Source: an uncultured Bosea sp.
GTDB lineage: Bacteria; Pseudomonadota; Alphaproteobacteria; Rhizobiales; Beijerinckiaceae
Direction of reading: 5' to 3'
Assembly (NCBI RefSeq): GCF_945957345.1
Contig: NZ_CAMFKW010000010.1
Location: forward strand, 9,231 to 73,230
DNA: 64,000 bases
Part shown: piece by piece, positions 46,847 to 62,263 of the stretch
Numbering within the stretch: position 1 is the first letter of the stretch
Layout of the letters: each line of letters opens with the position of its first letter
The notes under the pieces: model-generated
Seen by the model: only the letters and a program-made list of their open reading frames with translations
Told to the model about the DNA's origin: nothing
The model's database searches: none
Position numbers and translations under genes: made by a program

Positions 46847-46942
46847 CTCCTTGCGCCATGTTGCTCCACGTCTCGCGTATGGAGTTCGGGCGCGCGCCGA
46901 GGGGTCGGCAGCGCCGATGCGTAATCAGGAGTTGAAAACGAC

Positions 46943-47347
46943 ATGAAGTCGCGAGAGACGCTTCTTCGGCTCAAGCGCTTCCAGGTCGACGAGAAACGTC
47001 GCCGGGTAAGCCAGATCGAGATGATGATCGCCGATTTTCATCGGATGGCGAGCGATCTCGATCGCGAGATCCAGGCCGAGGAATCGCGCGCCGGCATCGC
47101 GGACCCCGCCCATTTCGCCTATCCGACCTATGCCAAGGCAGCCCTCGGCCGCCGCGACAACCTGCGCCAGTCGGCCGACAACCTGAAGGGCCAGCTCGAC
47201 GAGGCCAAGGCCGAATTGCAGGAAGCCTTCGAGGACATGAAGAAGGTCGAGATTCTCGACGATCGCGAACGCGCTTCGGAGCGCGCGGCGGAAGCCGCCC
47301 GCGACCAGGCCACGATGGACGCGATCGGGCTGCGCTCGCGCGTCTGA
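46943..47347 (+). CDS. fliJ: Flagellar export chaperone FliJ
   Basis: MKSRETLLRLKRFQVDEKRRRVSQIE...HFAYPTYAKAA...FEDMKKVE, the alphaproteobacterial FliJ pattern. AGGAG RBS. Confidence 0.9.
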   Translation: MKSRETLLRLKRFQVDEKRRRVSQIEMMIADFHRMASDLDREIQAEESRAGIADPAHFAYPTYAKAALGRRDNLRQSADNLKGQLDEAKAELQEAFEDMKKVEILDDRERASERAAEAARDQATMDAIGLRSRV

Positions 47348-47367
47348 GCCCGTTTTCAAGAATTCAG

Positions 47368-47400
47368 AAAAAGGCGGCGTCCTCGGGGCGCCGCCTTTTT
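47368..47400. terminator. Bidirectional Rho-independent terminator between fliJ and the GNAT
   Basis: AAAAAGGCGGCGTCC-TCG-GGGCGCCGCCTTTTT. Confidence 0.85.
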
Positions 47401-48014
47401 CATGCAATGACGGGATGGTGCACGACGGAGTCGCGCCGCAGCTTGCCGCTCAGGCGTGGATCGTCGTCGACCTCGACCCCGCGCTTGAACACGGTGAAGC
47501 CCGAGCGCTGGTAGAAGGCGAGCGCGGCCGGGTGGTCGAGCGTGCAGGTATGCACCCAGAAGCGCGAGATCGGCTTGGCCCAGGCCAGCGCCAGCGCCCG
47601 GTTCATCAGCCAGCGCCCCGCACCCTTGCCGACCACGGGCTCGTCCAGCCCGAAGAAGGCGAGCTCGCCCTCCCCCGCCACGCGGAAATCCAGCTCGAGC
47701 AAGCCGACATCGCGCCCCTCATGGCGAACGGCGTAGACCTCGATGGCCGGGTCGGCGAACACCGCCCCGAGCTCGGCACGCGGCTTGGTCAGGCGGCTGA
47801 ACCACATCCAGCGCTCGCCGAGCAGCCGGTAGACGGCAAGATAGCGCTCGATCTCGGCGCGGCCGATCCCTTCGAGCGAAAAACCTTCCATGCCAGGAGG
47901 ATCGGGCCGCTCCGGCGGCCGTGCGAACATCTCCAGCGAAGTCACGATCGTCGCGATCTTGCCGGGCGGCAGGTCGGTCGTTCCGGTTAGGGTGATGGTC
48001 AGGCTCTGGGACAT
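47400..48014 (-). CDS. GNAT-family acetyltransferase
   Basis: LAFFGLDEPVVGKGAGRWLM and WVHTCTLDHPAALAFYQRSGF. Confidence 0.88.
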   Translation of the reverse strand: MSQSLTITLTGTTDLPPGKIATIVTSLEMFARPPERPDPPGMEGFSLEGIGRAEIERYLAVYRLLGERWMWFSRLTKPRAELGAVFADPAIEVYAVRHEGRDVGLLELDFRVAGEGELAFFGLDEPVVGKGAGRWLMNRALALAWAKPISRFWVHTCTLDHPAALAFYQRSGFTVFKRGVEVDDDPRLSGKLRRDSVVHHPVIA

Positions 48015-48054
48015 GGAAGGCAGGCGCGCTCGGCTCGAAAATCGGGATCGTCGC

Positions 48055-48075
48055 CGCGATCATGACATGATCGCG
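48055..48075. promoter_or_regulatory. Perfect 10-1-10 palindrome, candidate operator
   Basis: CGCGATCATG-A-CATGATCGCG, 20 bp upstream of ORF 48095 and 41 bp from the divergent GNAT start. Confidence 0.5.
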
Positions 48076-48094
48076 TTCGAAAGATCACGACGCA

Positions 48095-48517
48095 ATGATG
48101 CATGCCCGGCCTGAGAGCACAGACGGATCGAGGCGACGACCGCAAAGTCGTCGGCCCGCCAGCTGGCTGTTCGGCCTCCTGGTGATGTGCTTCGCTGTGC
48201 TGCCGCATCTCACGCTGGCAGCGTCGATGATGTGCATGCCGGTTCCTGCCCCAGAACACCATGCCGTGAGCATGCAGGCGACTTCGGGCGAACAGGCGCA
48301 CGCGCCGGCCCCCTGCCACAAGACCGGAGACGCGCAAGCAGCCGCAGGTCCGCCCTGCTGCATCATCGGCTGTGGCTTGATCGCCGAAGCCCCTGCCGCG
48401 CCCATGCGGCCGATCGCGGTCCGCTGGTCGCGGTTGCCGCCCGCCTCGGCCACGGTGGTTCAAGACCGTTCGACAGAACCGGCGGAGCGACCGCCGCGAC
48501 CGGCGCGTTTCGCCTGA
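48095..48517 (+). CDS. DUF2946/CopL/CutF-like exported Cys/His-rich protein with C-terminal RPPR motif
   Basis: Hydrophobic export signal, His/Met-rich middle, PCH and PCCIIGCG, C-terminal EPAERPPRPARFA. Confidence 0.65.
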   Translation: MMHARPESTDGSRRRPQSRRPASWLFGLLVMCFAVLPHLTLAASMMCMPVPAPEHHAVSMQATSGEQAHAPAPCHKTGDAQAAAGPPCCIIGCGLIAEAPAAPMRPIAVRWSRLPPASATVVQDRSTEPAERPPRPARFA

Positions 48518-48591
48518 AGCCGATTTTCCAGGGGATCACGATGCCGCCTCGCGGCACGGTCCGCCTATCCATCGATCAAGGATCTAGACAG

Positions 48592-48966
48592 ATGAAGCGT
48601 AACACCATTGCCCTCGCCGCCCTGCTTGCCGCCAGCCTGCTTGCCGGCACCGCCCAGGCCCAGCAGTCCCATGCGGGCCATGGCACCACCGCGCCCACGA
48701 AGGCTGGCGACAGCGCCTCGACCAGGGCCTATCGCGACGCCAATATGAAGATGCACAAGGAGATGGACATCCCCTATTCCGGCGATGCCGATGCCGATTT
48801 CGTCCGCGGCATGATCCCGCATCATCAGGGCGCGATCGACATGGCCAGGATCGTCCTGGCCCATGGCAAGGACCCCGAGATCCGCAAGCTCGCCGAAAGC
48901 GTCATCCGCGACCAGGAGAAGGAGGTCGCGATGATGAAGGACTGGCTGAAGAAGAACGGCAAGTAG
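48592..48966 (+). CDS. DUF305 (CopM-like) periplasmic metal-binding protein
   Basis: Signal peptide, HAGH, MKMHKEM, DADFVRGMIPHHQGAIDMA and IRDQEKEVAMM. Confidence 0.88.
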   Translation: MKRNTIALAALLAASLLAGTAQAQQSHAGHGTTAPTKAGDSASTRAYRDANMKMHKEMDIPYSGDADADFVRGMIPHHQGAIDMARIVLAHGKDPEIRKLAESVIRDQEKEVAMMKDWLKKNGK

Positions 48967-49125
48967 CCGCTCCTTCCCTCCCTTGACCCTGGGTGAGGAC
49001 GGGCAGTCTCAAATGCTTGCCCTCGCCCTTCCCCACTGGCAGAGAGGGGAAAGGTTCGCGCCGCAGCGGTGACGACGTGGGCCAGCCGTTGCCCGTCACC
49101 ATCCTGTTCAGAACCCGCGGCCTCC

Positions 49126-50163
49126 ATGAAACGTTATCTCGACTATCTCTGGCCGATCATCGGGCTCGTCGCGGTCGTCTGGTCCGTCGAACTGCTCTGG
49201 AGCAAGCTCAAGGCCGAAGCCGGCTCCGACGCCACGATCGAGGCGCTGCTCGCCGATGCCAGCCTCTGGCAGAGCATCAAGATCATCGCCCACCGCATCG
49301 GCCACAAGATCGCGGTGATCCCGCCGGAAGCCTTCTTCCATGCCGCGCTGGCGACGCTGGTCGCCTATGCCGCGCTCGCCTGGTACGACCGCATCGCCCT
49401 GATCCATCTCGGCAAGGAGAAGGGCATTTCCTGGTTCTATATCTCGCTCTGCTCCTTCGTGACCTATGCGCTCTCGCACAATATCGGCGCCTCGGTCTTC
49501 TCCGGCGGCATGGTGCGCTACCGTGCCTATACGGCGAAGGGCCTGACGGCGGCGGAGGTCGCCGTCCTCGTCGCGCTTTGCTCCTTCACCTTCGCCTTCG
49601 GCACGATCTTTCTGATGGGGCTGGTGCTGCTCTACGAGCCGCAGATCCTGCATCCGCTGGAACGGATGTCGAAATGGTTCGCGATCAGCGATGGCACGGC
49701 GCGCCTGATCGGCGTCGGCATGCTCGCCTTCGTCGCGCTCTACACCATCGGCTCGTGGCTGCGCTTCAGGCCGCTGAAGATCGGCAAGTTCGAGATCATC
49801 TATCCGCGGCTGCCCATCGTCTTCAGGCAGTATCTCGCAGCCCCGCTCGAACTCGCGGGCGCCGCCGGCATCATCTATTTCGCCCTGCCCGACCAGGGCA
49901 ATCCGGGCTTCCTGATCGTGCTGGGCGCCTTCCTGCTCTCCTTCTCGGCCGGGCTGCTCAGCCAGGTTCCCGGCGGCGTCGGCGTCATGGAGGCTGTCTT
50001 CCTGGCGGTGATGCCGACCGTGCCGGCACCGGCCGTCTTCGCCGCGCTGCTGATTTGGCGGCTGTTCTATCTCATCTTGCCGCTGGTCTTCTCGCTGCCG
50101 ATCGTGCTCGCCTTCGAGCGCGCGCAACTCAAGCGCAGCACCCGCATCGCCCCGCCGCCCTAG
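49126..50163 (+). CDS. UPF0104 / lysylphosphatidylglycerol-synthase TM-region (YbhN-like) protein
   Basis: YAALAWYDRIAL, YALSHNIGASVFSGGMVRYRAY, SQVPGGVGVMEAVF and ALLIWRLFY. Confidence 0.85.
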   Translation: MKRYLDYLWPIIGLVAVVWSVELLWSKLKAEAGSDATIEALLADASLWQSIKIIAHRIGHKIAVIPPEAFFHAALATLVAYAALAWYDRIALIHLGKEKGISWFYISLCSFVTYALSHNIGASVFSGGMVRYRAYTAKGLTAAEVAVLVALCSFTFAFGTIFLMGLVLLYEPQILHPLERMSKWFAISDGTARLIGVGMLAFVALYTIGSWLRFRPLKIGKFEIIYPRLPIVFRQYLAAPLELAGAAGIIYFALPDQGNPGFLIVLGAFLLSFSAGLLSQVPGGVGVMEAVFLAVMPTVPAPAVFAALLIWRLFYLILPLVFSLPIVLAFERAQLKRSTRIAPPP

Positions 50164-50208
50164 CATCGGTTCGAAAACTGGGAACCGGCTTTCGGGGCAA
50201 GCCGATGC
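50163..50208. repeat. Short palindromic intergenic repeat (Rhizobiales-type)
   Basis: GCATCGG...CCGATGC terminal inverted repeat around CGAAAACTGGGAACCGGCTTTCG, between convergent genes. Confidence 0.6.
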
Positions 50209-50221
50209 GCAAAAAAGGCCG

Positions 50222-51109
50222 TCAGCGCTTGAGCGCGATCGCCGCCGCGCCGAACATGAGCAACGCGCCGATCGCTTCCGACCAGCCGAAGGGCTCGCTG
50301 AGCGCCAGAACGCCGACCGCGACCGCGATGGCCGGGCTGACGAAGGCATAGAGCCCGGCCCGGAAAGCGCCCCAGTCGCGCAGCAGCCGCATATAGATGG
50401 TGAAGCCCATCAGCGAGCCGCCGATCACGAGGAAGACCACGGCCGGCAGGACCGGCCAGCTCGCCAGTGCTCGGACATCGGCATAGCTGATCGGCTCCAG
50501 CGCGAGCGAAACCGCGGTCAAGCCGATGCCGCCGATCAGCGTCTGCCAGCCGGCCAGCGTCAGCGTCGGCATCGTCCTGGCGATCGGCCGGGAGAGCACC
50601 GCGCCGACGCAGTAGAACAGCGTGCCACCTGCGACCGCCGCAAGCCCCATCGCTTCAAGCGGATCGCCATGGGCGACTGAGAGCCCGCCCATCGCCCGCG
50701 TCGCGAACAGGAAGCAAAGCCCGACGGTTCCGAGCGCAATCGCGGCGATCTTGCGCCCGTCGATGTGCACGCCCTCGATCGCCCGGCTGGCCAGCAGGGT
50801 ATAGATCGGGATGGTCGCGAAATTGACGATGGCCGCGAGCCCGGTCGGCGCGTGTTTCGTGCCCCAGAACAGCAAGGCATAATTGACGGTATTGAGCAGC
50901 AGAGCCGTGCCGATCAAACGGGGCCAGGCGCTGGCCGGCACCTTGGGCGCATCACGCCCGGCCCAGACCAGCATCAGGAAACCGGCGATCGAAAAGCGCA
51001 CCGCCGCCAGGAAGACCGGCGGCACATGCGTCGATCCGACCTTGACCGGCAGCCACGTCAGACCCCAGACGAGGCACATGACGGCGAAGAGGAGAGCGTT
51101 GCGCGACAT
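50222..51109 (-). CDS. EamA/DMT-family transporter
   Basis: VWGLTW, two EamA repeats and AFVSPAIAVAVG. Confidence 0.9.
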   Translation of the reverse strand: MSRNALLFAVMCLVWGLTWLPVKVGSTHVPPVFLAAVRFSIAGFLMLVWAGRDAPKVPASAWPRLIGTALLLNTVNYALLFWGTKHAPTGLAAIVNFATIPIYTLLASRAIEGVHIDGRKIAAIALGTVGLCFLFATRAMGGLSVAHGDPLEAMGLAAVAGGTLFYCVGAVLSRPIARTMPTLTLAGWQTLIGGIGLTAVSLALEPISYADVRALASWPVLPAVVFLVIGGSLMGFTIYMRLLRDWGAFRAGLYAFVSPAIAVAVGVLALSEPFGWSEAIGALLMFGAAAIALKR

Positions 51110-51192
51110 GATGTCCGCTTAGCCGCAGCCTATGGCGCTGACCATTGCGCCGCAGGCATCGCGCCCCCGTGGAAACGGGTGGCGCAAAGGGC

Positions 51193-53322
51193 TCAGACGC
51201 TGCCGACCGTCTTGAGGCGCACGCGCGGATGAATCTCGGCCTGCGACAGCACCGGCGTCTCCCGGCGGAAGCGCTCGATGATCTGGCGGGCGAAGGGCCG
51301 CGCCATCGCCGAAGTGACCAGCGCCGGCATCTCGCCGATGCGGGCGGCATCCTCGAACTTGTCGCGGACGTGATGCACGAATTCCTGCAGGCGCGAGGGC
51401 TGCATGGCGAGATGGCGATCCTCGCCCTGGCCGATGATCGACTCGGCGAAGACGCCTTCCCAGGCCGGCGACAGCGTGATGATCGGCAGCACGCCCTGCA
51501 TGTTGGAGAACTGGGCGCAGATTTGGCGGGCGAGGCGCGCGCGGACATGCTCGGCGATCTCGCGCGGATTGCGCATGCTCGCCGAAACCTCTGCGATCCC
51601 CTCGATGATCGTCGGCAGGTCGCGGATCGAGATGCGCTCGGAGAGCAGGAGCTGCAACACGCGCTGGATGCCGGTGGTCGAGATCTGGCTCGGCACGATC
51701 TCCTTGACGAGATCGGCATGGTCCTTCGGCAGCTCGCGCAGAAGCTTCTGCACTTCGGAATGCGAGAGCAACTCCGGCATGTTCGACTTCAACACCTCCG
51801 TGAGATGCGTCGAGATCACGGTCGCGGCGTCGACCACGGTGTAGCCGCGCAACTGCGCCTCGTCCTGCAGCGCCGCGTCGATCCAGGTCGCCGGCAGGCC
51901 GAAGGTCGGCTCCAGCACGTTGTGACCCGGCAGGTTCACGGCCCCGCCCATGGGATCCATCGCCATGTACTGGCCGGCATAGACGATGCCCTGGCCGGCA
52001 TCGATCTCCTTGATCTTGATGAAGTAGTGGTTCGCCTCGAGCTGGACGTTGTCGACGATGCGCACCGCCGGCATGACGAAGCCGAGTTCGGCCGCCAGCT
52101 GCCGGCGCAAGGCCCGGACCTGATCGGTGAGCCGGTCCTGCCCGCTCGGCGCGTTGACCAGCGGCAGGAGGCCGTAACCGATCTCGATCTTGAGCTCGTC
52201 CATCTTGAGGAGGTCGTTGAGCGTCTCCTCGCGTGGCGTACCATCCGCCGCGACCGTCCCCCCGGCCTGCGCCGGATCAAGCACACCCTGCTGCGCCTCG
52301 CGCGCCTTGGCCGCCTTGCCGAAACGATAGGCCAGGAAGCCCGCACCGGCCGCCAGCAGCAGGAAGGGCAGCATCGGGATGCCCGGTAGCAGCGCGATCA
52401 GCAGCATGACGGCGGCCGACATGCCGAGCGCCTTGGGATAGCTGGAGAGCTGCTTACCGAGCGCCTTGTCGGCCGCGCCGCGGACGCCCGCCTTCGAGAC
52501 GAGCAGGCCCGCTGCGGTCGAGACGATCAGCGCCGGCACTTGGCTGACGAGGCCGTCGCCGACGGTGAGCAGGGTATAGTTATGCGCCGCCTGGCCGAAG
52601 CTCAGCCCCTGCTGCGCCACGCCGATGACGATGCCGCCGAGCACGTTGATGAAGGTGATCAGCAGGGCGGCGATGGCGTCGCCGCGGACGAATTTCGAGG
52701 CACCGTCCATCGAGCCGAAGAAGGAGGATTCGTCCTCCAGCGCCTTGCGACGAACCTTTGCTGTATCCTGGTCGATGAGGCCGGCGGAAAGGTCGGCGTC
52801 GATCGCCATCTGCTTGCCGGGCATGGCATCGAGGGTGAAGCGCGCCGCGACTTCGGCGATACGGCCCGAGCCCTTGGTGATGACGACGAAGTTCACGATG
52901 ATCAGGATCGTGAAGACGATCACGCCGATCACGAAATTGCCGCTCATCACGAAGCCTGCGAAGGCCTCGATGACGTGGCCCGCAGCGGAAGTCCCCTCGT
53001 GGCCATGGGCCAGGATCAGGCGCGTCGAGGCGAGGTTCAGTGCCAGGCGGAACATCGTGACGATCAGCAGCACCGTCGGAAAGGCCGAGAATTCCAACGG
53101 CTCCTCGATGAACAGCGCCGTCATCAGCACCAGCACCGACACAATGATCGAGAGTGCCAGCATCAGATCGAGCAGGATCGCCGGCATCGGGAAGATGAGC
53201 ACCACCAGGATGCCCATGACGCCGACGGCAAGGAACAGGTCGGGACGGTTGAACAGCTTCCCGAGCGCGCCGCGATCGGGAATGGCGAAGCCTCCGCCCT
53301 GACCTGCCGTCACATCGGTCAT
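51193..53322 (-). CDS. flhA: Flagellar export apparatus protein FlhA
   Basis: FSAFPTVLL, RLALNLASTRLIL, KGSGRIAEVAARFTLDAMPGKQMAIDADL and FFGSMDGASKFVRGDAIA. Confidence 0.96.
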   Translation of the reverse strand: MTDVTAGQGGGFAIPDRGALGKLFNRPDLFLAVGVMGILVVLIFPMPAILLDLMLALSIIVSVLVLMTALFIEEPLEFSAFPTVLLIVTMFRLALNLASTRLILAHGHEGTSAAGHVIEAFAGFVMSGNFVIGVIVFTILIIVNFVVITKGSGRIAEVAARFTLDAMPGKQMAIDADLSAGLIDQDTAKVRRKALEDESSFFGSMDGASKFVRGDAIAALLITFINVLGGIVIGVAQQGLSFGQAAHNYTLLTVGDGLVSQVPALIVSTAAGLLVSKAGVRGAADKALGKQLSSYPKALGMSAAVMLLIALLPGIPMLPFLLLAAGAGFLAYRFGKAAKAREAQQGVLDPAQAGGTVAADGTPREETLNDLLKMDELKIEIGYGLLPLVNAPSGQDRLTDQVRALRRQLAAELGFVMPAVRIVDNVQLEANHYFIKIKEIDAGQGIVYAGQYMAMDPMGGAVNLPGHNVLEPTFGLPATWIDAALQDEAQLRGYTVVDAATVISTHLTEVLKSNMPELLSHSEVQKLLRELPKDHADLVKEIVPSQISTTGIQRVLQLLLSERISIRDLPTIIEGIAEVSASMRNPREIAEHVRARLARQICAQFSNMQGVLPIITLSPAWEGVFAESIIGQGEDRHLAMQPSRLQEFVHHVRDKFEDAARIGEMPALVTSAMARPFARQIIERFRRETPVLSQAEIHPRVRLKTVGSV

Positions 53323-53369
53323 CGACCGCTCCGCCCCACGCCTCATACGCCCCGAAGCAGGGCGCAGCT

Positions 53370-53408
53370 CGGCAATTCTTGCCGGGCATATGGTGAACGA
53401 GTGGTTAA
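53370..53408 (-). promoter_or_regulatory. Class II flagellar promoter of flhA: CtrA box plus FlbD ftr-like element
   Basis: Minus strand TTAA-CCACTCG-TTCA (53394-53408) and perfect palindrome CGGCAA-TTC-TTGCCG (53370-53384). Confidence 0.65.
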
Positions 53409-53430
53409 GACCGCCCAGGAAATTCCATCT

Positions 53431-53455
53431 GGAACCTTTTCCTGAACGCCCTGTT
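53431..53455 (+). promoter_or_regulatory. Sigma-EcfG-type promoter for Tat peptide 1
   Basis: GGAAC-N16-TGTT. Confidence 0.45.
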
Positions 53456-53546
53456 ATCGAAAGACCCTGTTACGGCCGCATTCGACCCGAGACTTCGGGA
53501 ACGGGCCGACAAACCGGCGTTTCAAGCCGGACTTGAGGAGGATCAA

Positions 53547-53876
53547 TTGGATAGACGTTCTTTCATCACCAGCCTTTTCGGTGGTCTCGCGATCGCCAGC
53601 ATCGGCGGCGCCGCCCTGGCAGGGACCGACCTTGCAAAGGCCGCTGCTCCGGCGCCTCAACCTTTGCCCCCTGCCGATCCACAGGCGCTCGACGCAAAAA
53701 CCGCGCGCAAGCTCGATGAGGCCGATGCCGAATTCACCCAGGTCGTCCGTCGTGAACGGGTTTATCGCCATAACCGCCGTGGCCGTCCCGTCGTCGTCGA
53801 TCGGCGCGTCGTGGTGCGGCGCGATCGGTTCGGCCGGCCCGTGCGCCGCGTCGTGACACGCCGCCGCGTCTACTGA
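53547..53876 (+). CDS. Tat-signal small protein with Arg/Val-rich C-terminal tail (paralog 1)
   Basis: TTG start after GAGGAGGA; MDRRSFI twin-Arg motif; DAEFTQ followed by a 44-aa tail with 18 Arg and 13 Val. Confidence 0.8.
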   Translation: MDRRSFITSLFGGLAIASIGGAALAGTDLAKAAAPAPQPLPPADPQALDAKTARKLDEADAEFTQVVRRERVYRHNRRGRPVVVDRRVVVRRDRFGRPVRRVVTRRRVY

Positions 53877-53882
53877 CGCCTC

Positions 53883-53935
53883 GCGGGCTTCTGCCCGCTC
53901 CTGGAAAGCCCCGCCGCTTCCGCCGGGAGCGGCGG
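53883..53935 (+). terminator. Two hairpins after the peptide gene (terminator-like, weak U tract)
   Basis: GCGGGC-TTCT-GCCCGC (53883-53898) and CCGCCGCTTCC-GCC-GGGAGCGGCGG (53911-53935). Confidence 0.45.
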
Positions 53936-53952
53936 TTCGATGGGAGGACGTC

Positions 53953-55401
53953 GTGCCGGCCCCTGACCTGACAGACGCAGCGCCTGTCATCGTCGAAACC
54001 GACGTGCCCGCCCGGCTCGACCGCCTGCCCTGGTCGCGCTTTCACACGCTCGTGGTCGTCGCCCTCGGCATCACCTGGATCCTCGATGGGCTCGAAGTCA
54101 CGCTCGCCGGCTCGGTCTCGGGCGCCCTCAAGGAAAGCCCGGCCCTCAAATTCACCAATACCGAGATCGGCATGGCCGGTGCCGCCTATATCGCCGGCGC
54201 GGTGCTTGGCGCGGTGTTCTTCGGCTGGCTCACCGACCGGTTGGGCCGCAAGAAGCTCTTCACGATCACGGTGCTCGTTTATCTCACCGCCGCGGCAGCC
54301 ACCGCCTTCTCCTGGAATGTCTGGAGCTTCATCCTCTTTCGCTTTTTCACAGGCATGGGCATCGGCGGCGAATACACGGCGATCAACTCGACGATCCAGG
54401 AACTGGTCCCGGCCCGTGTGCGCGGCTGGACCGATCTCGTCATCAACGGCTCGTTCTGGATCGGCGCTGCGCTGGGCGCGCTCGGCGCCATCGTCCTGCT
54501 CGATCCCGCTCTGATCGCCCCCGAATATGGCTGGCGCCTCGCCTTCTTCATCGGTGCGGCGCTCGGCCTCGTCATTCTCTTCCTGCGGCAATGGATTCCG
54601 GAAAGCCCGCGCTGGCTGATCAGCCATGGTCACCCCGAGCGCGCCGCGGCGATCGTCGCCGATATCGAGCGCCGGGCCGGCTTCGTCTCGCCTGCCGGCG
54701 AGGTCCTGCCCCTGACCCGCCTGCGCCCCCGCGCCGCGACACCGCTCGGCGAGGTCTTCCGGGCGCTTTTCGTCGTCCATCGCGAGCGCGCCCTGGTCGG
54801 ACTCATGCTGATGCTGTCGCAGGCGTTCTTCTACAACGCGATCTTCTTCACCTATGCGCTGATTTTGACCGATTTCTACGCCGTGCCCTCGCAGAAGATC
54901 GGCTGGTTCATCCTGCCCTTCGCGGCCGGCAATTTCCTCGGGCCCCTTCTGATCGGCCGCTTCTTCGATACGCTCGGCCGGCGCGTCATGATCGCCGCGA
55001 CCTATGCCCTGTCGGGGCTGTTGCTGACCGGAACCGGCTACCTCTTCTGGAAGGATTGGCTCACGGCCTCGCAGCTCACGCTCTGCTGGAGCGTCGTCTT
55101 CTTCTTCGCCTCGGCCGCTGCGAGTTCCGCCTATCTCACCGTCTCCGAGACCTTCCCGGTCGAGATGCGCGCGCTCGCCATCGCGATGTTCTATGCGCTC
55201 GGCACCGGCGCGGGCGGCATCGCCGGCCCCTGGCTCTTCGGCATCCTCATCGACACCGGTTCGCGTGGCAGCGTCTTCGGCGGCTATCTGCTGGGGGCCG
55301 TCCTGATGCTGGCGGCGGCCCTGATCGCGGCGCGCTTCGCGATCCGGGCCGAGCGCCAGCCGCTCGAAAGCGTGGCGAGGCCGCTCAATGCCGTCGATTG
55401 A
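53953..55401 (+). CDS. MFS transporter (sugar/aromatic acid porter-like)
   Basis: WILDGLEV, GWLTDRLGRKK, GIGGEY, PESPRWL, DTLGRR and ETFPVEMRA. Confidence 0.9.
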   Translation: MPAPDLTDAAPVIVETDVPARLDRLPWSRFHTLVVVALGITWILDGLEVTLAGSVSGALKESPALKFTNTEIGMAGAAYIAGAVLGAVFFGWLTDRLGRKKLFTITVLVYLTAAAATAFSWNVWSFILFRFFTGMGIGGEYTAINSTIQELVPARVRGWTDLVINGSFWIGAALGALGAIVLLDPALIAPEYGWRLAFFIGAALGLVILFLRQWIPESPRWLISHGHPERAAAIVADIERRAGFVSPAGEVLPLTRLRPRAATPLGEVFRALFVVHRERALVGLMLMLSQAFFYNAIFFTYALILTDFYAVPSQKIGWFILPFAAGNFLGPLLIGRFFDTLGRRVMIAATYALSGLLLTGTGYLFWKDWLTASQLTLCWSVVFFFASAAASSAYLTVSETFPVEMRALAIAMFYALGTGAGGIAGPWLFGILIDTGSRGSVFGGYLLGAVLMLAAALIAARFAIRAERQPLESVARPLNAVD

Positions 55402-55441
55402 CGCGCCGCGCGTAACCATAGCGCGCGAAAACCGCCCCAAT

Positions 55442-55467
55442 GGAACAAAGCATCATTTAAATGCATT
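55442..55467 (+). promoter_or_regulatory. Sigma-EcfG-type promoter for Tat peptide 2
   Basis: GGAAC-N17-CATT. Confidence 0.5.
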
Positions 55468-55535
55468 ATTCCCCACCGGCATTCCCTCACTAAGAATGCT
55501 GCTGGAGATAGGGTGACAACAGCCTGGAGGCCGTC

Positions 55536-55844
55536 GTGGACAGACGCTCATTCCTGATGACACTGGTCGGTGGTTTTGCCGCAGCCGGCATGGGCGGCAT
55601 CGCCGTTGCCGAAGCGGCCCAGCCCAAGCTGGCACCGCTTCCGGACGCCGAGCCCGCCAAGGGCGAGGAAGCCGTGACCGCCGAGATGAAGGAGGCGCTC
55701 GACAAGACCGACGCCGAATTCAGCCAGTACTACTACTATCGCCGGCCGCGCTACTACCGGCGCCACTACTACCGCCCGCGCTACTACTACCGGCCGCGCT
55801 ACTACGCACGCCCGCGCTACTATTACCGCAGGCGCTACTGGTAA
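55536..55844 (+). CDS. Tat-signal small protein with Tyr/Arg-rich C-terminal tail (paralog 2)
   Basis: GTG start after GGAGG; MDRRSFL; DAEFSQ followed by a 38-aa tail with 17 Tyr and 14 Arg. Confidence 0.8.
   Translation: MDRRSFLMTLVGGFAAAGMGGIAVAEAAQPKLAPLPDAEPAKGEEAVTAEMKEALDKTDAEFSQYYYYRRPRYYRRHYYRPRYYYRPRYYARPRYYYRRRYW
55773..55826 (+). repeat. Three tandem 18-bp repeats encoding RPRYY(Y/A)
   Basis: CGCCCGCGCTACTACTAC / CGGCCGCGCTACTACGCA / CGCCCGCGCTACTATTAC. Confidence 0.8.
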
Positions 55845-55860
55845 CGGCTGAACGCCCGGG

Positions 55861-57225
55861 TCAGGCAGCGCTGATGCGCGTCTGGCCCGGCTCGGCGACC
55901 GTGATCCCCGCCGACGTATATTCGCTGAGCTTGTTGCGCAGCGTGCGGATCGAGATTCCCAGGATCTTGGCGGCATGCGTGCGGTTGCCAAGGCAGTGAT
56001 CTAGCGTATCGAGGATCAGCTCGCGCTCGACATCGGCGACGGTATGTCCGACCAGCGAGCGCGTCATCGCCTCCGCCGTTTGGGCCGCGCGTGCAGCCGG
56101 ATCGCGTGACGGGGCCGGCGCCAGCGCCTCCCCTTCCGGGCTGAGCACGGCGGTCGCCGCGATTTCCGGCCCGCTCGCCAACAGCACCGCCCGGTGCATC
56201 GTGTTCTCAAGTTCCCGCACATTGCCGCGCCACGCACTGGTGAGCAGCAGCTTGCGTGCATCGGCCGCGATCGGCCTGGGCGGCAACCCGTTCAGATCAG
56301 CATATTTCTTGGCGAAATGATCGGCCAGCGCCAGGATATCGCCCGGCCGCTCGCGCAACGCCGGCAGGCGCAGATGCACGACATTGAGCCGATAGAGCAG
56401 GTCCTCGCGGAACGAGCCTTCGCGCACGGCGTCGGCAAGGTTGCGGTTCGAGGTCGCGATGATCCGGATATCGACCTTGACCGGCTGCGTGCCGCCGACG
56501 CGGTCGATCATGCGCTCCTGCAGCGCGCGCAGAAGCTTGGCCTGCAAGCGGACATCCATTTCCGAGATTTCGTCGAGCAGCAGCGTGCCGCCATTAGCCT
56601 CCTCGAACTTGCCGATGCGGCGCGCGATAGCGCCGGTGAAGGCGCCCTTCTCATGGCCGAACAACTCGGATTCGAGCAGATTGTCGGGAATCGCGGCGCA
56701 GTTCACCGCAACGAAGGGCCGGTCCTTGCGCCCCGATTTCTGGTGGAGGTGGCGCGCAATCACCTCCTTGCCGGTGCCGCTCTCGCCGGTGACGAGCACC
56801 GGCGCTTCCGAGCGCGCGATCTGCGTGGCGAGCTGCACGACGCGCTCCATCGCCGGATCCCGCCAGATCAGGCTGGACTGGTCGGCCGCAACCGCCTCCA
56901 GCACCGCCGCGATCAATTCCGGATCGGGCGGCAGCGGCACGTATTCGCGGGCGCCAGCCTGGATTGCGGCTACGGCGGCGCGCGTATCGGTCGAGGTGCC
57001 GCAGGCAACGATCGGCGTGCGGATGCGCTCGCTGTCCAGCGCCGCGACATAAGCCGCGATCGGCTGCACGACGTCGATCATCAGCAAATCGGCACCCTTG
57101 GCGCGCAGCACGGCCAGCGTCTGGTCGAGGCTTTCCGTATGGGTCACGGCCGCGCCATGCGACATGGCGATCTTGGCGGCTGCGATGATCTGTCCCTTGA
57201 GACCGCCGGCGATGATGAGGCGCAT
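55861..57225 (-). CDS. flbD: Sigma54-dependent flagellar activator FlbD
   Basis: GESGTGKE, ELFGHEKGAFTGA, LLDEISE, FREDLLYRL and C-terminal HTH GNRTHAAKILGIS. Located directly after fliF-G-H-N. Confidence 0.9.
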   Translation of the reverse strand: MRLIIAGGLKGQIIAAAKIAMSHGAAVTHTESLDQTLAVLRAKGADLLMIDVVQPIAAYVAALDSERIRTPIVACGTSTDTRAAVAAIQAGAREYVPLPPDPELIAAVLEAVAADQSSLIWRDPAMERVVQLATQIARSEAPVLVTGESGTGKEVIARHLHQKSGRKDRPFVAVNCAAIPDNLLESELFGHEKGAFTGAIARRIGKFEEANGGTLLLDEISEMDVRLQAKLLRALQERMIDRVGGTQPVKVDIRIIATSNRNLADAVREGSFREDLLYRLNVVHLRLPALRERPGDILALADHFAKKYADLNGLPPRPIAADARKLLLTSAWRGNVRELENTMHRAVLLASGPEIAATAVLSPEGEALAPAPSRDPAARAAQTAEAMTRSLVGHTVADVERELILDTLDHCLGNRTHAAKILGISIRTLRNKLSEYTSAGITVAEPGQTRISAA

Positions 57226-61208: not shown

Positions 61209-61484
61209 TTACTGGCGGTAGTGCTGGATCCGGGTCGTCCGCAGGCCGGCGAGGCCGTGCTGGTCGATCGACATCTGCCAGCTCAGGAACTCGTCGACGG
61301 TCAGCGTATAGCGCTGGCACGCCTCTTCGAGGCTCAGCAGCCCGCCGCGCACGGCAGCCACCACCTCGGCCTTTCGCCGGATGACCCAGCGCCTGGTATT
61401 CATCGGGGGCAGGTCCGCGATCGTCAGCGGACTTCCGTCCGGTCCGATCACGTACTTCACCCGCGGTCGCAATGGCTCGGTCAT
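61209..61484 (-). CDS. sciP: CtrA inhibitor SciP (DUF1153)
   Basis: MTEPLRPRVKYVIGPDGSPLTIADLPP..TRRWVIRRKAEVVAAVRGGLLSLEEACQRY..GLRTTRIQHYR. Confidence 0.95.
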   Translation of the reverse strand: MTEPLRPRVKYVIGPDGSPLTIADLPPMNTRRWVIRRKAEVVAAVRGGLLSLEEACQRYTLTVDEFLSWQMSIDQHGLAGLRTTRIQHYRQ

Positions 61485-61537
61485 GGTACTCTCACACAAC
61501 TCAACAGAGCTACTGAGGGCAGCATAAGAGGCTGGCT

Positions 61538-61552
61538 TTAAGAATTGGCTAA
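61538..61552. promoter_or_regulatory. CtrA box upstream of sciP
   Basis: TTAA-GAATTGG-CTAA (one mismatch). Confidence 0.6.
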
Positions 61553-61591
61553 AACGATCGCCTCGGATGTCCACGACTGATTCGCCGCTGC

Positions 61592-62263
61592 TCAATCGCC
61601 GCGCACCACGCTCTTGACCTTGTCGATCGGCACCGTGATCGAGCCGATCTTGAGCATCGGGATCGACGAGGTGAAGTCGACGCCGTCGACCACGCCGCTG
61701 ACCTGCGTCTTCGCCGTGACGCTCTCGCCCAGCACATTCTTGGCGTCGATCGAGATGCTGTACTCGCCATCCGGCGCGGTGGTGCCGAGCGAGGTCGAGC
61801 CGTCCCAGCTGAAGGTCTGATCGCCAGCGGTCAGCGTCCGGGTCATCGTCTGGACGACGCTGCCGCTGGAGTTCTTGATGGTGATCGTGCCGGTGCCGGC
61901 CGAAGCCATGTTGACCTTCCAGTCGGCCTTGCCGTTGGCCAGTCGCGTCGTGGTGCCGTCGGCCGTGATCGTCGAGCCGATGAAGCCGACCGCGTTCGTC
62001 GCCGTCCCCGCCGCGCTGAGGCTGAGCAGGGAGCCCAGCGTCTCATTGGTCTTGAGCTGCTGCTCGACGCCGGCGAACTGCACGAGCTGCTGGGTGAACT
62101 GGTTGGTGTCGAGCGGGTCCAGCGGCGACTGGTTCTTGAGCTGCGTCGTCAGCAGCGTCAGGAACTGGTCGAAATTATTGGCGATGCCGCTCGTGGTGCC
62201 GGTCACACCGCTGGAGCTGGTGCCCGATGTGCCGGAAGTGCCTGATGTTCCGGAAACAGCCAT
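61592..62263 (-). CDS. flgD: Flagellar hook capping protein FlgD
   Basis: FLTLLTTQLKNQSPLDPLDTNQFTQQLVQFAGVEQQ and FSWDG. Confidence 0.94.
   Translation of the reverse strand: MAVSGTSGTSGTSGTSSSGVTGTTSGIANNFDQFLTLLTTQLKNQSPLDPLDTNQFTQQLVQFAGVEQQLKTNETLGSLLSLSAAGTATNAVGFIGSTITADGTTTRLANGKADWKVNMASAGTGTITIKNSSGSVVQTMTRTLTAGDQTFSWDGSTSLGTTAPDGEYSISIDAKNVLGESVTAKTQVSGVVDGVDFTSSIPMLKIGSITVPIDKVKSVVRGD

What the first reader, a model, noticed from the sequence alone, without database searches (positions are those of the whole stretch)
53547..55844. Two paralogous Tat-exported precursor-like peptides with a shared DAEFxQ junction and divergent polycationic tails, flanking an MFS transporter
Seen: both begin MDRRSF(I/L)xxLxGG, continue through an Ala/Pro/acidic spacer and share LD-x-x-DAEF(T/S)Q. 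The tails then diverge: 44 aa with 18 Arg and 13 Val versus 38 aa with 17 Tyr and 14 Arg. Both have strong RBSs and non-ATG starts. An MFS gene lies between them, and the trio interrupts the flhA-flbD region. Established: signal, acidic pro-region and cationic core is the layout of antimicrobial and RiPP precursors, and Arg/Tyr-rich sequences drive cation-pi condensation and adhesion. Inference: a family of processed secreted peptides acting as antimicrobials, as binders of EPS, eDNA or polyphosphate, or as a stress-protective periplasmic matrix. No modifying enzyme is adjacent.
Basis: partly seen in the sequence, partly recalled or inferred. Interest (0 to 1): 0.8.

Follow-up and report, generated by a model that had tools for sequence, protein, structure and literature searches.

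The report
Exported arginine-rich mini-proteins of Bosea
Two small genes flanking a transporter gene in a Bosea-type flagellar cluster encode members of an uncharacterised family of exported ~100-residue proteins whose tails are about 40% arginine plus tyrosine or valine; they are real, conserved, transcribed and sit behind stress-sigma-type promoters, but their job is still only inferred.

Summary
ORF A (53547-53876) and ORF B (55536-55844) are paralogs: a twin-arginine-type signal, an acidic Ala/Pro linker ending in LDxxDAEFxQ, then a 44-aa Arg/Val tail or a 38-aa Tyr/Arg/Pro tail.

They are real genes. Only this frame is open in all 46 and 55 distinct orthologs, pN/pS is below 1, the RBSs are strong, and contigs from nine RNA runs cover them.

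They belong to an unnamed family: no Pfam or NCBIfam model, 395 clusters at 50% identity, found in Bosea, Beijerinckiaceae, Methylobacteriaceae and other Hyphomicrobiales. Pooled tails are 42% Arg, 26% Tyr and 0.1% Lys. Some end in a Cys-bracketed hairpin.

flhA | A | MFS | B | flbD is the commonest arrangement in Bosea (36 of 48 loci). Outside Bosea the MFS is not linked, and no modifying enzyme recurs.

New here: a position-conserved ECF-sigma-type promoter (GGAAC-N16-YGTTAT, like the alphaproteobacterial general-stress EcfG consensus) lies upstream of A. Where A is missing it lies upstream of the MFS. A looser version precedes B.

Best reading: stress-induced, exported polycations that bind anionic envelope or matrix components. 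This is inferred, not shown. An antimicrobial role is not excluded. A RiPP reading is not supported.

The parts
53431..53456 (+). ECF-sigma-type promoter upstream of ORF A: GGAAC-N16-TGTTAT, -35 at 53431-53435 and -10 at 53452-53456
   Evidence: Present at -109 to -122 in 41 of 49 A-type upstream regions; canonical CGTT in 14. GGAAC and GTTAT columns are >=90% conserved while the flanks vary. It matches the EcfG consensus GGAAC-N16-CGTT (PMC3892343). RNA contigs begin at 53475 and 53491, just downstream.
53535..53541 (+). Ribosome-binding site GAGGAGG of ORF A, 5 nt before the TTG
   Evidence: Read from the sequence. The GGAGG block is conserved in the alignment of upstream regions.
53547..53621 (+). 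ORF A residues 1-25: twin-arginine-type signal MDRRSFITSLFGGLAIASIGGAALA, with a predicted signal-peptidase site after ALA
   Evidence: RRSF(I/L/V) motif, a Gly/Ala-rich hydrophobic region and an AxA site. TIGR01409 TAT_signal_seq hits 8 of 34 family members, best E 4.8e-5. For ORF A itself the only hit is TIGR02811 at E=0.084. AlphaFold predicts a helix at 3-19. The cleavage site is inferred.
53622..53741 (+). ORF A residues 26-65: Ala/Pro/acidic linker ending in the conserved junction LDEADAEFTQ
   Evidence: L56, D57, A61, F63 and Q65 are invariant in 23 A-type sequences. Predicted helix 50-59. Net charge -3.
53742..53876 (+). ORF A residues 66-109 and stop: Arg/Val tail (18 R, 13 V) with two RxGRP turns
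   Evidence: Composition. AlphaFold predicts a three-stranded beta-meander (E66-75, E81-92, E98-108) with block pLDDT 79-87. Foldseek finds no PDB match. Orthologous tails vary widely: R/V, R/H/P, R/H.
53911..53935 (+). GC-rich hairpin (8-bp stem CCGCCGCT/AGCGGCGG, 9-nt loop) between ORF A and the MFS gene; possibly a partial terminator
   Evidence: Read from the sequence. The terminator scan did not call it because there is no T-run. An RNA contig runs through it to 54012. Weak evidence.
53953..55401 (+). MFS transporter, 482 aa, sugar-porter/metabolite:H+ symporter type; probably co-transcribed with ORF A
   Evidence: Pfam Sugar_tr 6.8e-42 and MFS_1 3.8e-33. The NCBIfam hits (aromatic acid, metabolite, ProP-like symporters) are all below their cutoffs. 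In four of six examined Bosea loci that lack A, the GGAAC-N16-CGTT/GGTT motif sits upstream of the MFS.
55442..55468 (+). ECF-like promoter candidate upstream of ORF B: GGAAC-N17-CATTA, overlapping the palindrome AATGCATT in an AT-rich patch
   Evidence: GGAAC lies at -92 to -100 in the window's clade. In L008, L010 and L011 it reads GGAAC-N16-CGTTAT. 28 of 57 B upstream regions fit GGAAC-N16/17-N[GA]TT. RNA contigs start at 55485-55533 in six runs. Less certain than the A promoter.
55526..55530 (+). Ribosome-binding site GGAGG of ORF B, 5 nt before the GTG
   Evidence: Read from the sequence. >=90% conserved in 55 upstream regions.
55536..55616 (+). ORF B residues 1-27: twin-arginine-type signal MDRRSFLMTLVGGFAAAGMGGIAVAEA, with a predicted cleavage after AEA
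   Evidence: Same motif as A. Neither Tat HMM reaches E<=1 for this protein. Predicted helix 3-27. The cleavage site is inferred.
55617..55727 (+). ORF B residues 28-64: acidic linker ending in LDKTDAEFSQ
   Evidence: D56, D59, F62, S63 and Q64 are invariant in 12 B-type sequences. Predicted helix 44-67, block pLDDT 60-78. Net charge -5.
55728..55844 (+). ORF B residues 65-102 and stop: Tyr/Arg/Pro tail built from about six copies of an 18-nt (YYYRPR) unit
   Evidence: 17 Y, 14 R, 4 P. TRF array 55730-55839, period 18, 6.3 copies. Tail pN/pS is 0.16 across 57 orthologs. AlphaFold leaves it disordered, pLDDT about 50.

Best explanation
ORF A and ORF B are genuine, expressed genes of an uncharacterised Hyphomicrobiales family of roughly 90-130-residue preproteins. 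Each has three parts: (1) an N-terminal twin-arginine-type signal peptide with an AxA signal-peptidase site; (2) a short acidic, partly helical linker ending in an almost invariant (D/E)x(F/Y)xQ junction; (3) a lysine-free tail in which Arg-rich and Arg-Pro blocks alternate with blocks of beta-prone residues (V, I, T, Y, F, W). The tail either folds as a small beta-meander or hairpin or stays disordered.

Proposed mechanism, all inferred. An ECF sigma factor of the alphaproteobacterial general-stress (EcfG) type switches the genes on, A together with the MFS and B from its own promoter. The preproteins are exported across the inner membrane. Tat is the likely route, because a cargo of about +14 net charge is a poor Sec substrate and Tat tolerates short unstructured hydrophilic cargo. 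Signal peptidase then removes the signal. The released mini-proteins (net about +9 to +12) bind polyanionic envelope or matrix components through guanidinium-phosphate/carboxylate and cation-pi contacts. Candidate targets are lipid and LPS phosphates, peptidoglycan, anionic periplasmic glucans or EPS. The effect would be to cross-bridge or stabilise the envelope under stress such as desiccation, osmotic shock or divalent-cation loss.

Shown here: coding status, family, architecture, synteny, transcription, and conservation of the promoter motif. Inferred: sigma identity, export route, cleavage, location, ligand and physiological role.
For: Coding:
- Frame +0 is the only frame open in all 46 A and 55 B orthologs.
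- pN/pS is 0.42-0.61, and 0.16 for the B tail.
- The RBSs are conserved.
- RNA-run contigs cover A (two runs) and B (eight runs; nine runs in all). None matches the intervening MFS of this organism, apart from one in X7.

Family:
- 24 and 172 homologs for A and B, 556 with a profile of divergent members, and 395 clusters at 50% identity. Nearly all are 90-130 aa and align end to end.
- There are no Pfam or NCBIfam models for it.

Export:
- The RRxF(L/I/V) motif, hydrophobic region and AxA site are conserved.
- TIGR01409 hits 8 of 34 members and PF10518 hits 5 of 34. NCBI names some members as Tat-signal proteins.
- 17 of 211 tails carry a Cys pair bracketing a turn, which fits an oxidising compartment.
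- Tat tolerance of unstructured hydrophilic cargo up to about 100-120 aa is reviewed in PMC6708511.

Stress promoter:
- GGAAC-N16-[C/T/G]GTTAT sits at a fixed distance in 41 of 49 A upstream regions.
- The same motif drives the MFS where A is absent.
- Canonical GGAAC-N16-CGTT also occurs upstream of distant members in L068 and L082.
- The EcfG consensus is taken from PMC3892343.

Against an antagonism role: the genes are syntenic core genes across Bosea (36 of 48 loci with the full trio), and no immunity, processing or dedicated export genes recur.

Composition: exclusive use of Arg (42%) over Lys (0.1%) although the linkers do contain Lys.
Against: - No functional data of any kind exist for the family.
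- The window's own -10 elements are TGTT (A) and CATT (B), not CGTT. Other ECF groups also use GGAAC/CGT-type promoters.
- The motif is absent upstream of several distant members (L071, L072, L074, L077, L080, L083).
- The bare pattern is over-represented in the window in general (6 matches against 0.48 expected), including sites inside genes.
- Neither window protein reaches a Tat-signal HMM.
- The RNA evidence comes from unstranded assembled contigs of low depth, which can contain DNA.
- The fast turnover of A-type tails (pN/pS 0.61; R/V to R/H/P) and the Arg/Trp/Tyr, Cys-stapled hairpins are also what antimicrobial peptides look like.
- A high periplasmic dose of such polycations could harm the producer.
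- Repeated placement next to the flhA-flbD flagellar genes in three lineages is unexplained by this model.
Confidence: 0.4

Rival explanations
1. Secreted antimicrobial or antagonistic peptides. The signal exports a precursor, the acidic linker acts as a pro-piece, cleavage near the invariant Q frees an Arg/aromatic or Arg/Val beta-hairpin or Pro-Arg-type peptide that attacks competitors' membranes or intracellular targets, and in Bosea the co-transcribed MFS gives self-protection.
For: - The signal / acidic spacer / polycationic core layout is present.
- Tails are rich in R, W, Y, V and P. 17 of 211 have a Cys-x(8-16)-Cys bracket around a Gly/Asn turn, which resembles single-disulfide beta-hairpin peptides (the resemblance is from memory).
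- A is predicted to form a beta-meander.
- A-type tails diversify strongly, and paralogs are frequent, including a tandem pair in L072.
- An MFS shares the transcription unit in Bosea.
Against: - These are core, syntenic genes rather than strain-variable islands.
- No immunity, protease or dedicated exporter recurs in about 12 contexts.
- The MFS is of the solute:H+ symporter type, not a drug-efflux type, and is absent next to non-Bosea members.
- The B tail is under strong purifying selection (pN/pS 0.16).
- The spacer neutralises only 3-5 of about 15 charges.
- A general-stress-type promoter is unusual for bacteriocins.
- There is no obvious route across the outer membrane.
Confidence: 0.2
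2. Extracellular or surface matrix component. The polycations bind eDNA, acidic exopolysaccharide, polyphosphate or oxyanions, or mineral and plant surfaces, and act in adhesion or biofilm building, possibly coordinated with the motile-to-sessile switch given their flagellar neighbourhood.
For: - Arg/Tyr 'sticker' composition, with no Lys.
- The B tail is disordered and repeat-built.
- Placement inside or beside the flhA-flbD interval recurs in Bosea, in a second Hyphomicrobiales lineage (L071, L077) and in a Beijerinckiaceae MAG (L081).
- B-type transcripts are detected in rhizosphere metatranscriptomes.
Against: - No secretion route beyond the inner membrane is evident.
- There is no sigma-54/FlbD-type promoter upstream of either gene.
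- Many members lie in unrelated contexts.
- No polysaccharide or adhesin genes are linked.
Confidence: 0.12
3. Sacrificial periplasmic scavengers, analogous to the Met-rich peptide MrpX. The Tyr/Trp/His/Arg-rich tails would soak up reactive chlorine, nitrogen, radical or dicarbonyl species under an ECF-sigma response.
For: - MrpX gives a precedent: a small, compositionally extreme periplasmic protein under an ECF sigma (PMC4436054).
- An ECF-type promoter is present here.
- Pooled tails are 26% Tyr plus 5% Trp.
Against: - The one shared feature of all tails is Arg, not an oxidisable residue. The Arg/Val tails (ORF A) have almost no Tyr, Trp, Met or His.
- No repair enzyme such as YedY/MsrP is linked.
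- The promoter resembles EcfG, not the SigF type (the SigF comparison is from memory).
Confidence: 0.08
4. Flagellum-associated periplasmic accessory proteins, regulated with the flagellar hierarchy.
For: The position between flhA and the fliF-fliG-fliH-fliN-flbD operon is kept in 48 of 48 Bosea loci that hold both flanks, and in two further lineages.
Against: - There is no sigma-54 promoter.
- The flagellar-type conserved block in the flhA-A spacer lies on the flhA side.
- Other non-flagellar genes (EamA, DUF305, acetyltransferase, LPG_synthase_TM) also interrupt this cluster.
- Paralogs occur far from flagellar genes.
Confidence: 0.05
5. RiPP precursors whose tails are post-translationally modified by enzymes encoded elsewhere.
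For: A leader-like conserved region is followed by a hypervariable, repeat-rich core with aromatic-x-Arg spacing.
Against: - No radical-SAM, P450, cyclodehydratase, protease or ABC genes are adjacent in any of about 12 contexts.
- A cleavable export signal on a RiPP precursor is atypical (from general knowledge).
Confidence: 0.03
6. Spurious ORFs in GC-rich DNA: not translated.
For: They are short, of low complexity and have non-ATG starts. An antisense ORF overlaps each.
Against: - This is the only frame open in all orthologs. The antisense frame is open in 29 of 46 (A) and 4 of 55 (B).
- pN/pS is below 1.
- RBS and start are conserved.
- There are hundreds of full-length homologs.
- RNA contigs cover both genes.
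Confidence: 0.02

Closest known systems
Small stand-alone Tat-signal proteins (NCBIfam TIGR01409 TAT_signal_seq; TIGR02811 'formate dehydrogenase region TAT target')
   Same: A short protein that begins with an RRxF(L/I/V) motif, a Gly/Ala-rich hydrophobic region and an AxA site. 8 of 34 family members hit TIGR01409, and ORF A weakly hits TIGR02811 (E=0.084).
   Different: Neither window protein reaches either curated cutoff. The cargo is a polycationic, partly disordered tail rather than a cofactor-bearing or enzyme-partner domain. There is no redox-enzyme neighbour.
Cationic host-defence-type peptide precursors (signal + anionic pro-piece + cationic core; beta-hairpin peptides such as arenicin, tachyplesin and lactoferricin; Pro/Arg-rich peptides) - comparison from memory
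   Same: Three-part layout. Arg plus aromatic or Val composition. Predicted beta-meander in A. Cys-bracketed hairpins in 17 of 211 members. RPR/PRP repeats in B.
   Different: There is no sequence homology. The origin is bacterial, with a Tat-type signal. The pro-piece is only weakly anionic. No processing, immunity or export genes are linked. The genes are core and syntenic with a stress-type promoter.
MrpX, the methionine-rich periplasmic peptide of Azospira suillum (PMC4436054)
   Same: A small, compositionally extreme, signal-bearing protein transcribed from an ECF-sigma promoter as part of an envelope stress response.
   Different: Different residue bias (Met against Arg/Tyr/Val). No linked repair reductase. 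The sigma type appears different. No homology.
EcfG (sigma-T / RpoE2) general stress regulon of Alphaproteobacteria
   Same: The promoter architecture GGAAC-N16/17-CGTT (PMC3892343) is matched, exactly or with one -10 substitution, at a conserved position upstream of A, of the MFS where A is absent, and of several B-type and distant members.
   Different: Dependence on EcfG/PhyR is untested. The window copies have TGTT and CATT. Other ECF groups recognise similar boxes.
Stress-protective disordered proteins and periplasmic osmoprotective proteins (hydrophilins/LEA, OsmY) - comparison from memory
   Same: Small, highly hydrophilic and stress-promoter-driven. Composition rather than exact sequence appears to be conserved in A-type tails.
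   Different: Not Gly-rich. Extreme positive charge. No BON or LEA motifs (no Pfam hits).
Protamines and other Arg-rich nucleic-acid condensers
   Same: Arg content above 40% with no Lys.
   Different: These proteins carry an export signal, so they are not expected to meet the chromosome. Pfam Protamine_P2 hits 1 of 34 members at E=0.12 only.

Membership tests
Tat (twin-arginine) signal peptide | Consensus (S/T)-R-R-x-F-L-K at the n/h-region boundary | tested here: met
   D-R-R-S-F-(I/L) in both ORFs. R3, R4 and L10 are invariant and F6 is nearly invariant in 34 diverse members. The trailing K is absent.
Tat (twin-arginine) signal peptide | Match to the curated signal models TIGR01409 / PF10518 | tested here: inconclusive
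   Neither window ORF scores at E<=1. 8 of 34 members hit TIGR01409 (best 4.8e-5) and 5 of 34 hit PF10518 (best 0.018).
Tat (twin-arginine) signal peptide | Export depends on TatABC and on the RR pair | not testable with these tools
   Needs a tatC mutant or RR-to-KK reporter fusions.
EcfG general-stress regulon | Promoter GGAAC-N16/17-CGTT at a suitable distance upstream | tested here: inconclusive
   Window A: GGAAC-N16-TGTT (53431-53455). Window B: GGAAC-N17-CATT. Orthologs: 41 of 49 A regions fit GGAAC-N16/17-N[GA]TT and 14 are canonical; for B, 28 of 57 fit and 4 are canonical. The position is conserved. The bare pattern is also over-represented window-wide.
EcfG general-stress regulon | Transcription induced by stress and lost in ecfG/phyR mutants | not testable with these tools
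   Only unstranded RNA contigs from unrelated runs were available.
RiPP precursor | Co-located modifying enzyme(s), leader protease or transporter | tested here: not met
   None is adjacent in the window or in about 12 independent contexts.
Bacteriocin / antimicrobial peptide locus | Linked immunity and/or dedicated export or processing genes; strain-variable distribution | tested here: not met
   Only a symporter-type MFS is linked, and only in Bosea. The trio is syntenic in 36 of 48 Bosea loci.
Bacteriocin / antimicrobial peptide locus | Growth-inhibitory activity of the mature peptide | not testable with these tools
   Needs peptide assays.
Anionic-propiece / cationic-core precursor | The pro-region charge roughly balances the core | tested here: not met
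   Linker net -3 (A) and -5 (B) against tails of +15 and +14.
Sigma-54 / FlbD flagellar class III-IV gene | TGGCAC-N5-TTGC promoter upstream | tested here: not met
   No match with <=2 mismatches lies in either upstream region. The only nearby hit, at 53621, is inside ORF A and lacks the GG.
Any described protein family (Pfam-A, NCBIfam) or solved fold | Significant HMM or structural match beyond the signal | tested here: not met
   The two window ORFs have no Pfam match and no significant NCBIfam match (only TIGR02811 at E=0.084 for A). Only noise-level hits appear across 34 members. Best Foldseek PDB E-value is 0.11.

The most novel reading that the evidence does not exclude
These genes could define a previously unrecognised class of bacterial stress effectors. 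In this reading they are Tat-exported, lysine-free Arg/Tyr (or Arg/Val) 'sticker' mini-proteins, made on a general-stress signal, that condense with anionic envelope polymers into a protective periplasmic or surface gel or coacervate. That would be a prokaryotic, extracytoplasmic counterpart of desiccation-protective disordered proteins. Equally novel would be a family of unmodified, Tat-exported beta-hairpin / Pro-Arg antimicrobial peptides made by Gram-negative soil bacteria.
Probability: 0.2. Interest if true: 0.8.

Novelty: new variant of a known kind. Interest (0 to 1): 0.55.

Why it matters
The family is widespread in soil, rhizosphere and water Hyphomicrobiales, yet it has no name, model or study. 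It combines a twin-arginine-type signal with a cargo that is among the most arginine-rich known in bacteria. That raises a concrete transport question: how is a cargo of about +14 net charge, partly unfolded, moved against the membrane potential? It also raises a physiological one: what does a Gram-negative cell do with polycations in its own envelope under stress? The conserved promoter gives an immediate handle through ecfG/phyR mutants and stress induction. The small size of the proteins makes synthesis, binding, condensation and activity assays straightforward. If the tails prove to be membrane-active or condensate-forming, they would be a new source of peptide scaffolds. If they stabilise the envelope, they would add an unrecognised arm to the alphaproteobacterial general stress response.

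Tried and rejected
- Pfam and NCBIfam scans of A and B gave no significant match: only TIGR02811 at E=0.084 for A and sub-threshold Tat-signal hits in relatives.
- Foldseek of the A model against the PDB gave nothing below E=0.1.
- AlphaFold on B left the tail disordered, so no fold search was done.
- A genome-collection scan with the broad alignment A1 failed because no stretch was conserved enough. The narrower alignment A2 worked, but its patterns bias the result towards Bosea.
- Sigma-70 promoter and intrinsic terminator scans found no promoter. The three terminator-like hits all lie inside the MFS gene.
- A sigma-54 scan found nothing upstream of either gene.
- Rfam found no RNA family in the UTRs.
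- The composition profile and repeat search gave no sign of a mobile element or foreign DNA around the trio.
- Antisense ORFs 53454-53990 and 55548-55991 were rejected as genes because they are not kept open in orthologs.
- Other window matches to GGAAC-N16/17-YGTT (448, 24987, 50706) lie inside or at the edge of unrelated genes and were not pursued.
- Literature searches for Arg/Tyr-rich exported bacterial proteins, Bosea, or Tat plus polycationic cargo found no description of this family.
- Cluster look-ups gave only 'hypothetical', 'conserved exported hypothetical' or 'Tat signal domain-containing' names.

Full report
**1. The observation**

- ORF A is 53547-53876, TTG start, 109 aa.
- ORF B is 55536-55844, GTG start, 102 aa.
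- Each is preceded by a strong Shine-Dalgarno sequence 5 nt upstream: GAGGAGG at 53535-53541 and GGAGG at 55526-55530.

Both begin MDRRSF(I/L)xxLxGG, continue through an Ala/Pro/acidic stretch, and share LD-x-x-DAEF(T/S)Q. The tail counts are exact:
- A has 44 residues with 18 Arg and 13 Val.
- B has 38 residues with 17 Tyr, 14 Arg and 4 Pro.

A 482-aa MFS transporter lies between them at 53953-55401 (Pfam Sugar_tr 6.8e-42). flhA lies upstream and flbD-fliN-fliH-fliG-fliF downstream, all on the minus strand.

The two ORFs are paralogs rather than a coincidence:
- BLASTP gives E=0.002 over the N-terminal 65 residues.
- The junction is 84% identical at the DNA level over 31 nt.
- A single profile retrieves both tail types.

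No further copy is in the window.

The acidic spacer carries only -3 (A) and -5 (B), against +15 and +14 in the tails, so it cannot neutralise them.

**2. Are they genes?**

In a 67% G+C window long spurious ORFs are common, and each ORF is overlapped by an antisense ORF. Four lines of evidence say the plus-strand frames are real.
- Among 46 distinct A-type and 55 distinct B-type orthologous genes from Bosea genomes, the annotated frame is the only one open in all. The antisense frame is open in 29 of 46 (A) and 4 of 55 (B).
- Pooled pairwise pN/pS is 0.49 for the A N-terminal part and 0.61 for the A tail. It is 0.42 for the B N-terminal part and 0.16 for the B tail.
- The RBS and start position are conserved. 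Starts are mostly TTG for A and GTG or ATG for B.
- Contigs assembled from public RNA runs cover the small genes. A is covered in two runs (53475-54012 and 53491-53748). B is covered in eight runs; in six of them the contig begins at 55485-55533. By contrast, only one contig matches the MFS gene closely (X7, 54010-54245). The other MFS hits, mostly in the metatranscriptomes, are short 90-95% matches to conserved motifs, probably from other organisms. These contigs are unstranded, of low depth and could contain DNA, so this is supporting evidence only.

The B tail is encoded by about six copies of an 18-nt unit (YYYRPR). This explains the length variation and the occasional frameshifted database entries such as P0037 and P0015.

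**3. The family**

Neither protein matches any Pfam-A or NCBIfam model. The only hit is ORF A to TIGR02811, at E=0.084. Homology searches gave:
- 24 relatives of A;
- 172 relatives of B;
- 556 relatives with a profile of divergent members;
- 395 representatives of 50%-identity clusters at E<=0.001 in an exhaustive scan, 91 of them at <=1e-10.

Almost all are 90-130 residues and align end to end.

Named sources are Bosea species, Beijerinckiaceae, Methylobacteriaceae and unclassified Hyphomicrobiales. The names given are 'hypothetical protein', 'conserved exported hypothetical protein' or 'twin-arginine translocation signal domain-containing protein'. The window itself is closest to Bosea sp. 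ASV33: B 97%, flhA 96% and flbD 98% identical.

The architecture is constant.
- The start is M(D/E/N)RRxF(L/I/V).
- A Gly/Ala-rich hydrophobic segment ends in AxA.
- A linker of 25-45 residues ends in an acidic stretch and a nearly invariant xQ.
- The tail usually starts YYY or VV.

Pooled over 211 members, the last 35 residues are 42% Arg, 26% Tyr, 8% Pro, 6% Val, 5% Trp and 0.1% Lys. The linkers do contain Lys, so the exclusive use of Arg in the tails is selected. Seventeen tails end in a Cys-x(8-16)-Cys segment around a Gly/Asn turn, for example RVVCRTYWRRGRPFRSCHRVWW.

AlphaFold results differ for the two proteins.
- A, with 23 sequences: a three-stranded beta-meander (66-75, 81-92, 98-108, with turns at the two RxGRP motifs) at block pLDDT 79-87, and a short helix at 50-59.
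- B, with 49 sequences: a helix through the junction (44-67) and a disordered tail.

No PDB fold matches the A model.

**4. Genomic context**

Of 63 loci recovered from one-genome-per-species contigs, 48 hold both flhA and flbD. The search patterns were taken from Bosea-type sequences, so the taxonomic spread is biased. In those 48 loci the gap contains:
- A + MFS + B in 36;
- MFS + B in 9;
- B alone in 2;
- A + B in 1.

The trio is therefore a conserved, genus-wide feature of Bosea, not an island. Nothing in base composition or repeats suggests mobility.

A-type tails differ greatly between species (Arg/Val, Arg/His/Pro, Arg/His). B-type tails stay Tyr/Arg/Pro.

Outside Bosea:
- A member again lies between flhA and flbD in a second Hyphomicrobiales lineage. 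There its neighbours are a methyltransferase, an SBF transporter and an AMP-ligase, with no MFS (L071, L077).
- Another member lies near the 3' end of the flbD operon in a Beijerinckiaceae MAG (L081).
- Others lie in unrelated places: next to lepA, HIT, TctC, bacterioferritin or sulfite-reductase genes. One locus has two members in tandem (L072).

No modifying enzyme, protease, immunity gene or dedicated exporter recurs. The MFS link is Bosea-specific.

**5. Regulation: the main new result**

Upstream of ORF A the window has GGAAC-N16-TGTTAT at 53431-53456.
- The same element, GGAAC-N16-(C/T/G)GTTAT, sits 109-122 nt upstream of the start in 41 of 49 A-type genes. Fourteen have the canonical CGTT.
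- In an alignment of 45 distinct upstream regions, the GGAAC and GTTAT columns are >=90% conserved while their surroundings vary.
- Six Bosea loci that lack ORF A were examined. In four of them a GGAAC-N16-CGTT or GGTT box remains in the same place, now in front of the MFS gene. An RNA contig reads from A past a GC hairpin (53911-53935) into the MFS. A and the MFS therefore look like one transcription unit.

Upstream of ORF B the window has GGAAC-N17-CATTA at 55442-55468, in an unusually AT-rich patch. Some Bosea species have GGAAC-N16-CGTTAT there. Overall 28 of 57 B upstream regions fit the loose pattern. Canonical boxes also precede distant members in L068 and L082.

The 5' ends of the RNA contigs (53475 and 53491 for A; 55485-55504 for B) fall just downstream of the predicted -10 boxes.

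GGAAC-N16-CGTT is the published promoter motif of sigma-EcfG, the general-stress sigma factor specific to Alphaproteobacteria (PMC3892343).

Caveats:
- The window copies deviate by one base in the -10 box.
- Other ECF sigmas use related boxes.
- Several distant members lack the motif.
- The bare pattern is over-represented in the window in general, including sites inside genes.

The argument therefore rests on positional conservation, not on a single match.

No sigma-54 promoter (the FlbD type) and no sigma-70 consensus promoter is present upstream of either gene. No Rfam element lies in the leaders.

**6. How it most likely works**

Shown: coding status, the three-part architecture, family size and distribution, synteny, transcription and a conserved ECF-type promoter.

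Inferred, in order of decreasing confidence:
- (a) The proteins are exported and the signal is removed at AxA.
- (b) Export uses Tat. The RRxF(L/I/V) motif is invariant, 8 of 34 members reach TIGR01409, and NCBI names some members as Tat-signal proteins. Neither window protein reaches the HMMs, however. A cargo of about +14 charge is a poor Sec substrate (general knowledge). Tat is reported to tolerate unstructured hydrophilic cargo up to about 100-120 residues (PMC6708511).
- (c) Transcription is driven by the general stress response.
- (d) The mature polycations bind anionic envelope or matrix components, and so stabilise or cross-bridge the envelope under stress.

Step (d) fits several observations: the exclusive use of Arg; the composition-level rather than sequence-level conservation of A tails; the core-genome status; the stress promoter; co-transcription with a symporter-type MFS that resembles metabolite and osmoprotectant importers (all NCBIfam hits below cutoff); and the Cys-stapled tails, which imply an oxidising compartment. 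It remains a hypothesis, and I give the whole chain 0.4.

**7. Rivals**

- Antimicrobial role (0.2). It is favoured by the Arg/Trp/Tyr/Val composition, the hairpins, the tail turnover and the paralogy. It is disfavoured by the synteny, the lack of immunity, processing or export genes, the strong constraint on B, the weak 'pro-piece' and the type of promoter.
- Matrix or adhesion role outside the cell (0.12). This would fit the recurring flagellar neighbourhood, which my main model does not explain.
- Sacrificial scavenger role, modelled on the Met-rich, ECF-controlled MrpX (PMC4436054) (0.08). It fits the Tyr/Trp-rich tails but not the Arg/Val ones.
- Flagellar accessory (0.05), RiPP precursor (0.03) and artefact (0.02) readings are poorly supported.

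**8. Comparison with what is known, and novelty**

Full-text searches found no description of such a family. It works somewhat like known things: small Tat substrates, cationic peptide precursors, ECF-controlled periplasmic 'bulk' peptides and stress-induced envelope proteins. It is a member of none of them by any test I could run.

I rate it a new variant of a known kind (small exported cationic proteins), with moderate-to-good interest. The function is still open.

Noticed in passing
window 53369-53415: A 47-nt block in the flhA / ORF A spacer, CTCGGCAATTCTTGCCGGGCATATGGTGAACGAGTGGTTAAGAC, is >=90% conserved across 45 Bosea upstream regions. It contains the palindrome GGCAA-TTC-TTGCC and a TTAAC half-site. 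It is probably the flhA (class II, CtrA-type?) promoter or operator rather than part of the peptide gene.
   Followed up: partly
window 51193-53346 (minus strand): The longest flhA ORF (717 aa, start 53346) is 8 codons longer than the gene called on identical contigs (709 aa, equivalent to a start at 53322). The true start is probably the inner one.
   Followed up: no
window 448, 16686, 20754, 24987, 50706 and 53431: GGAAC-N16/17-YGTT occurs 6 times in the window against 0.48 expected from shuffles. Of the three other sites examined, 50706 is inside a gene and 448 and 24987 lie at gene ends next to the start of the following gene. The excess is unexplained (codon or composition effect, or further ECF promoters).
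   Followed up: partly
window 55455-55468: An AT-rich patch with the perfect palindrome AATGCATT overlaps the putative -10 of ORF B. It is conserved as TTTAAATGCATTA in the window's clade and is a possible regulator site.
   Followed up: no
window 53470-53490 (5' leader of ORF A): Parts of the roughly 80-nt leader (CTGTTACGGCCGCATTCGACC) are conserved across Bosea although non-coding. This could be a post-transcriptional control element. There is no Rfam match.
   Followed up: partly
L072 6709-7311: Two family members lie in tandem in a Beijerinckiaceae MAG: a 77-aa Arg/Trp-tailed one, followed by the 101-aa Cys-hairpin one.
   Followed up: partly
L072 7414-7842; L080 6402-6827: A HIT-family (DcpS_C/HIT) gene follows the family member about 100 nt downstream on the same strand in two separate genomes, with FemAB_like and AzlCD genes nearby. 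This may be a second conserved neighbourhood.
   Followed up: no
L001 1-9800 (same species as the window; equivalent to window about 43500-53300): The flagellar cluster is interrupted by several non-flagellar genes: another MFS, an acetyltransferase, DUF305, an LPG_synthase_TM-like protein and an EamA transporter.
   Followed up: no
window 47229-48942 and 61219-61770: Besides ORFs A and B, these stretches are among the few parts of the last 20 kb of the window covered by full-length RNA-run contigs (runs X1, X3, X4). The genes there were not identified.
   Followed up: no
P0037, P0015, P0193, P0259, P0260, P0278, P0291: Several database members have the normal N-terminal part but a tail replaced by unrelated sequence. 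These look like frameshifts in the repetitive tail DNA or assembly errors.
   Followed up: no
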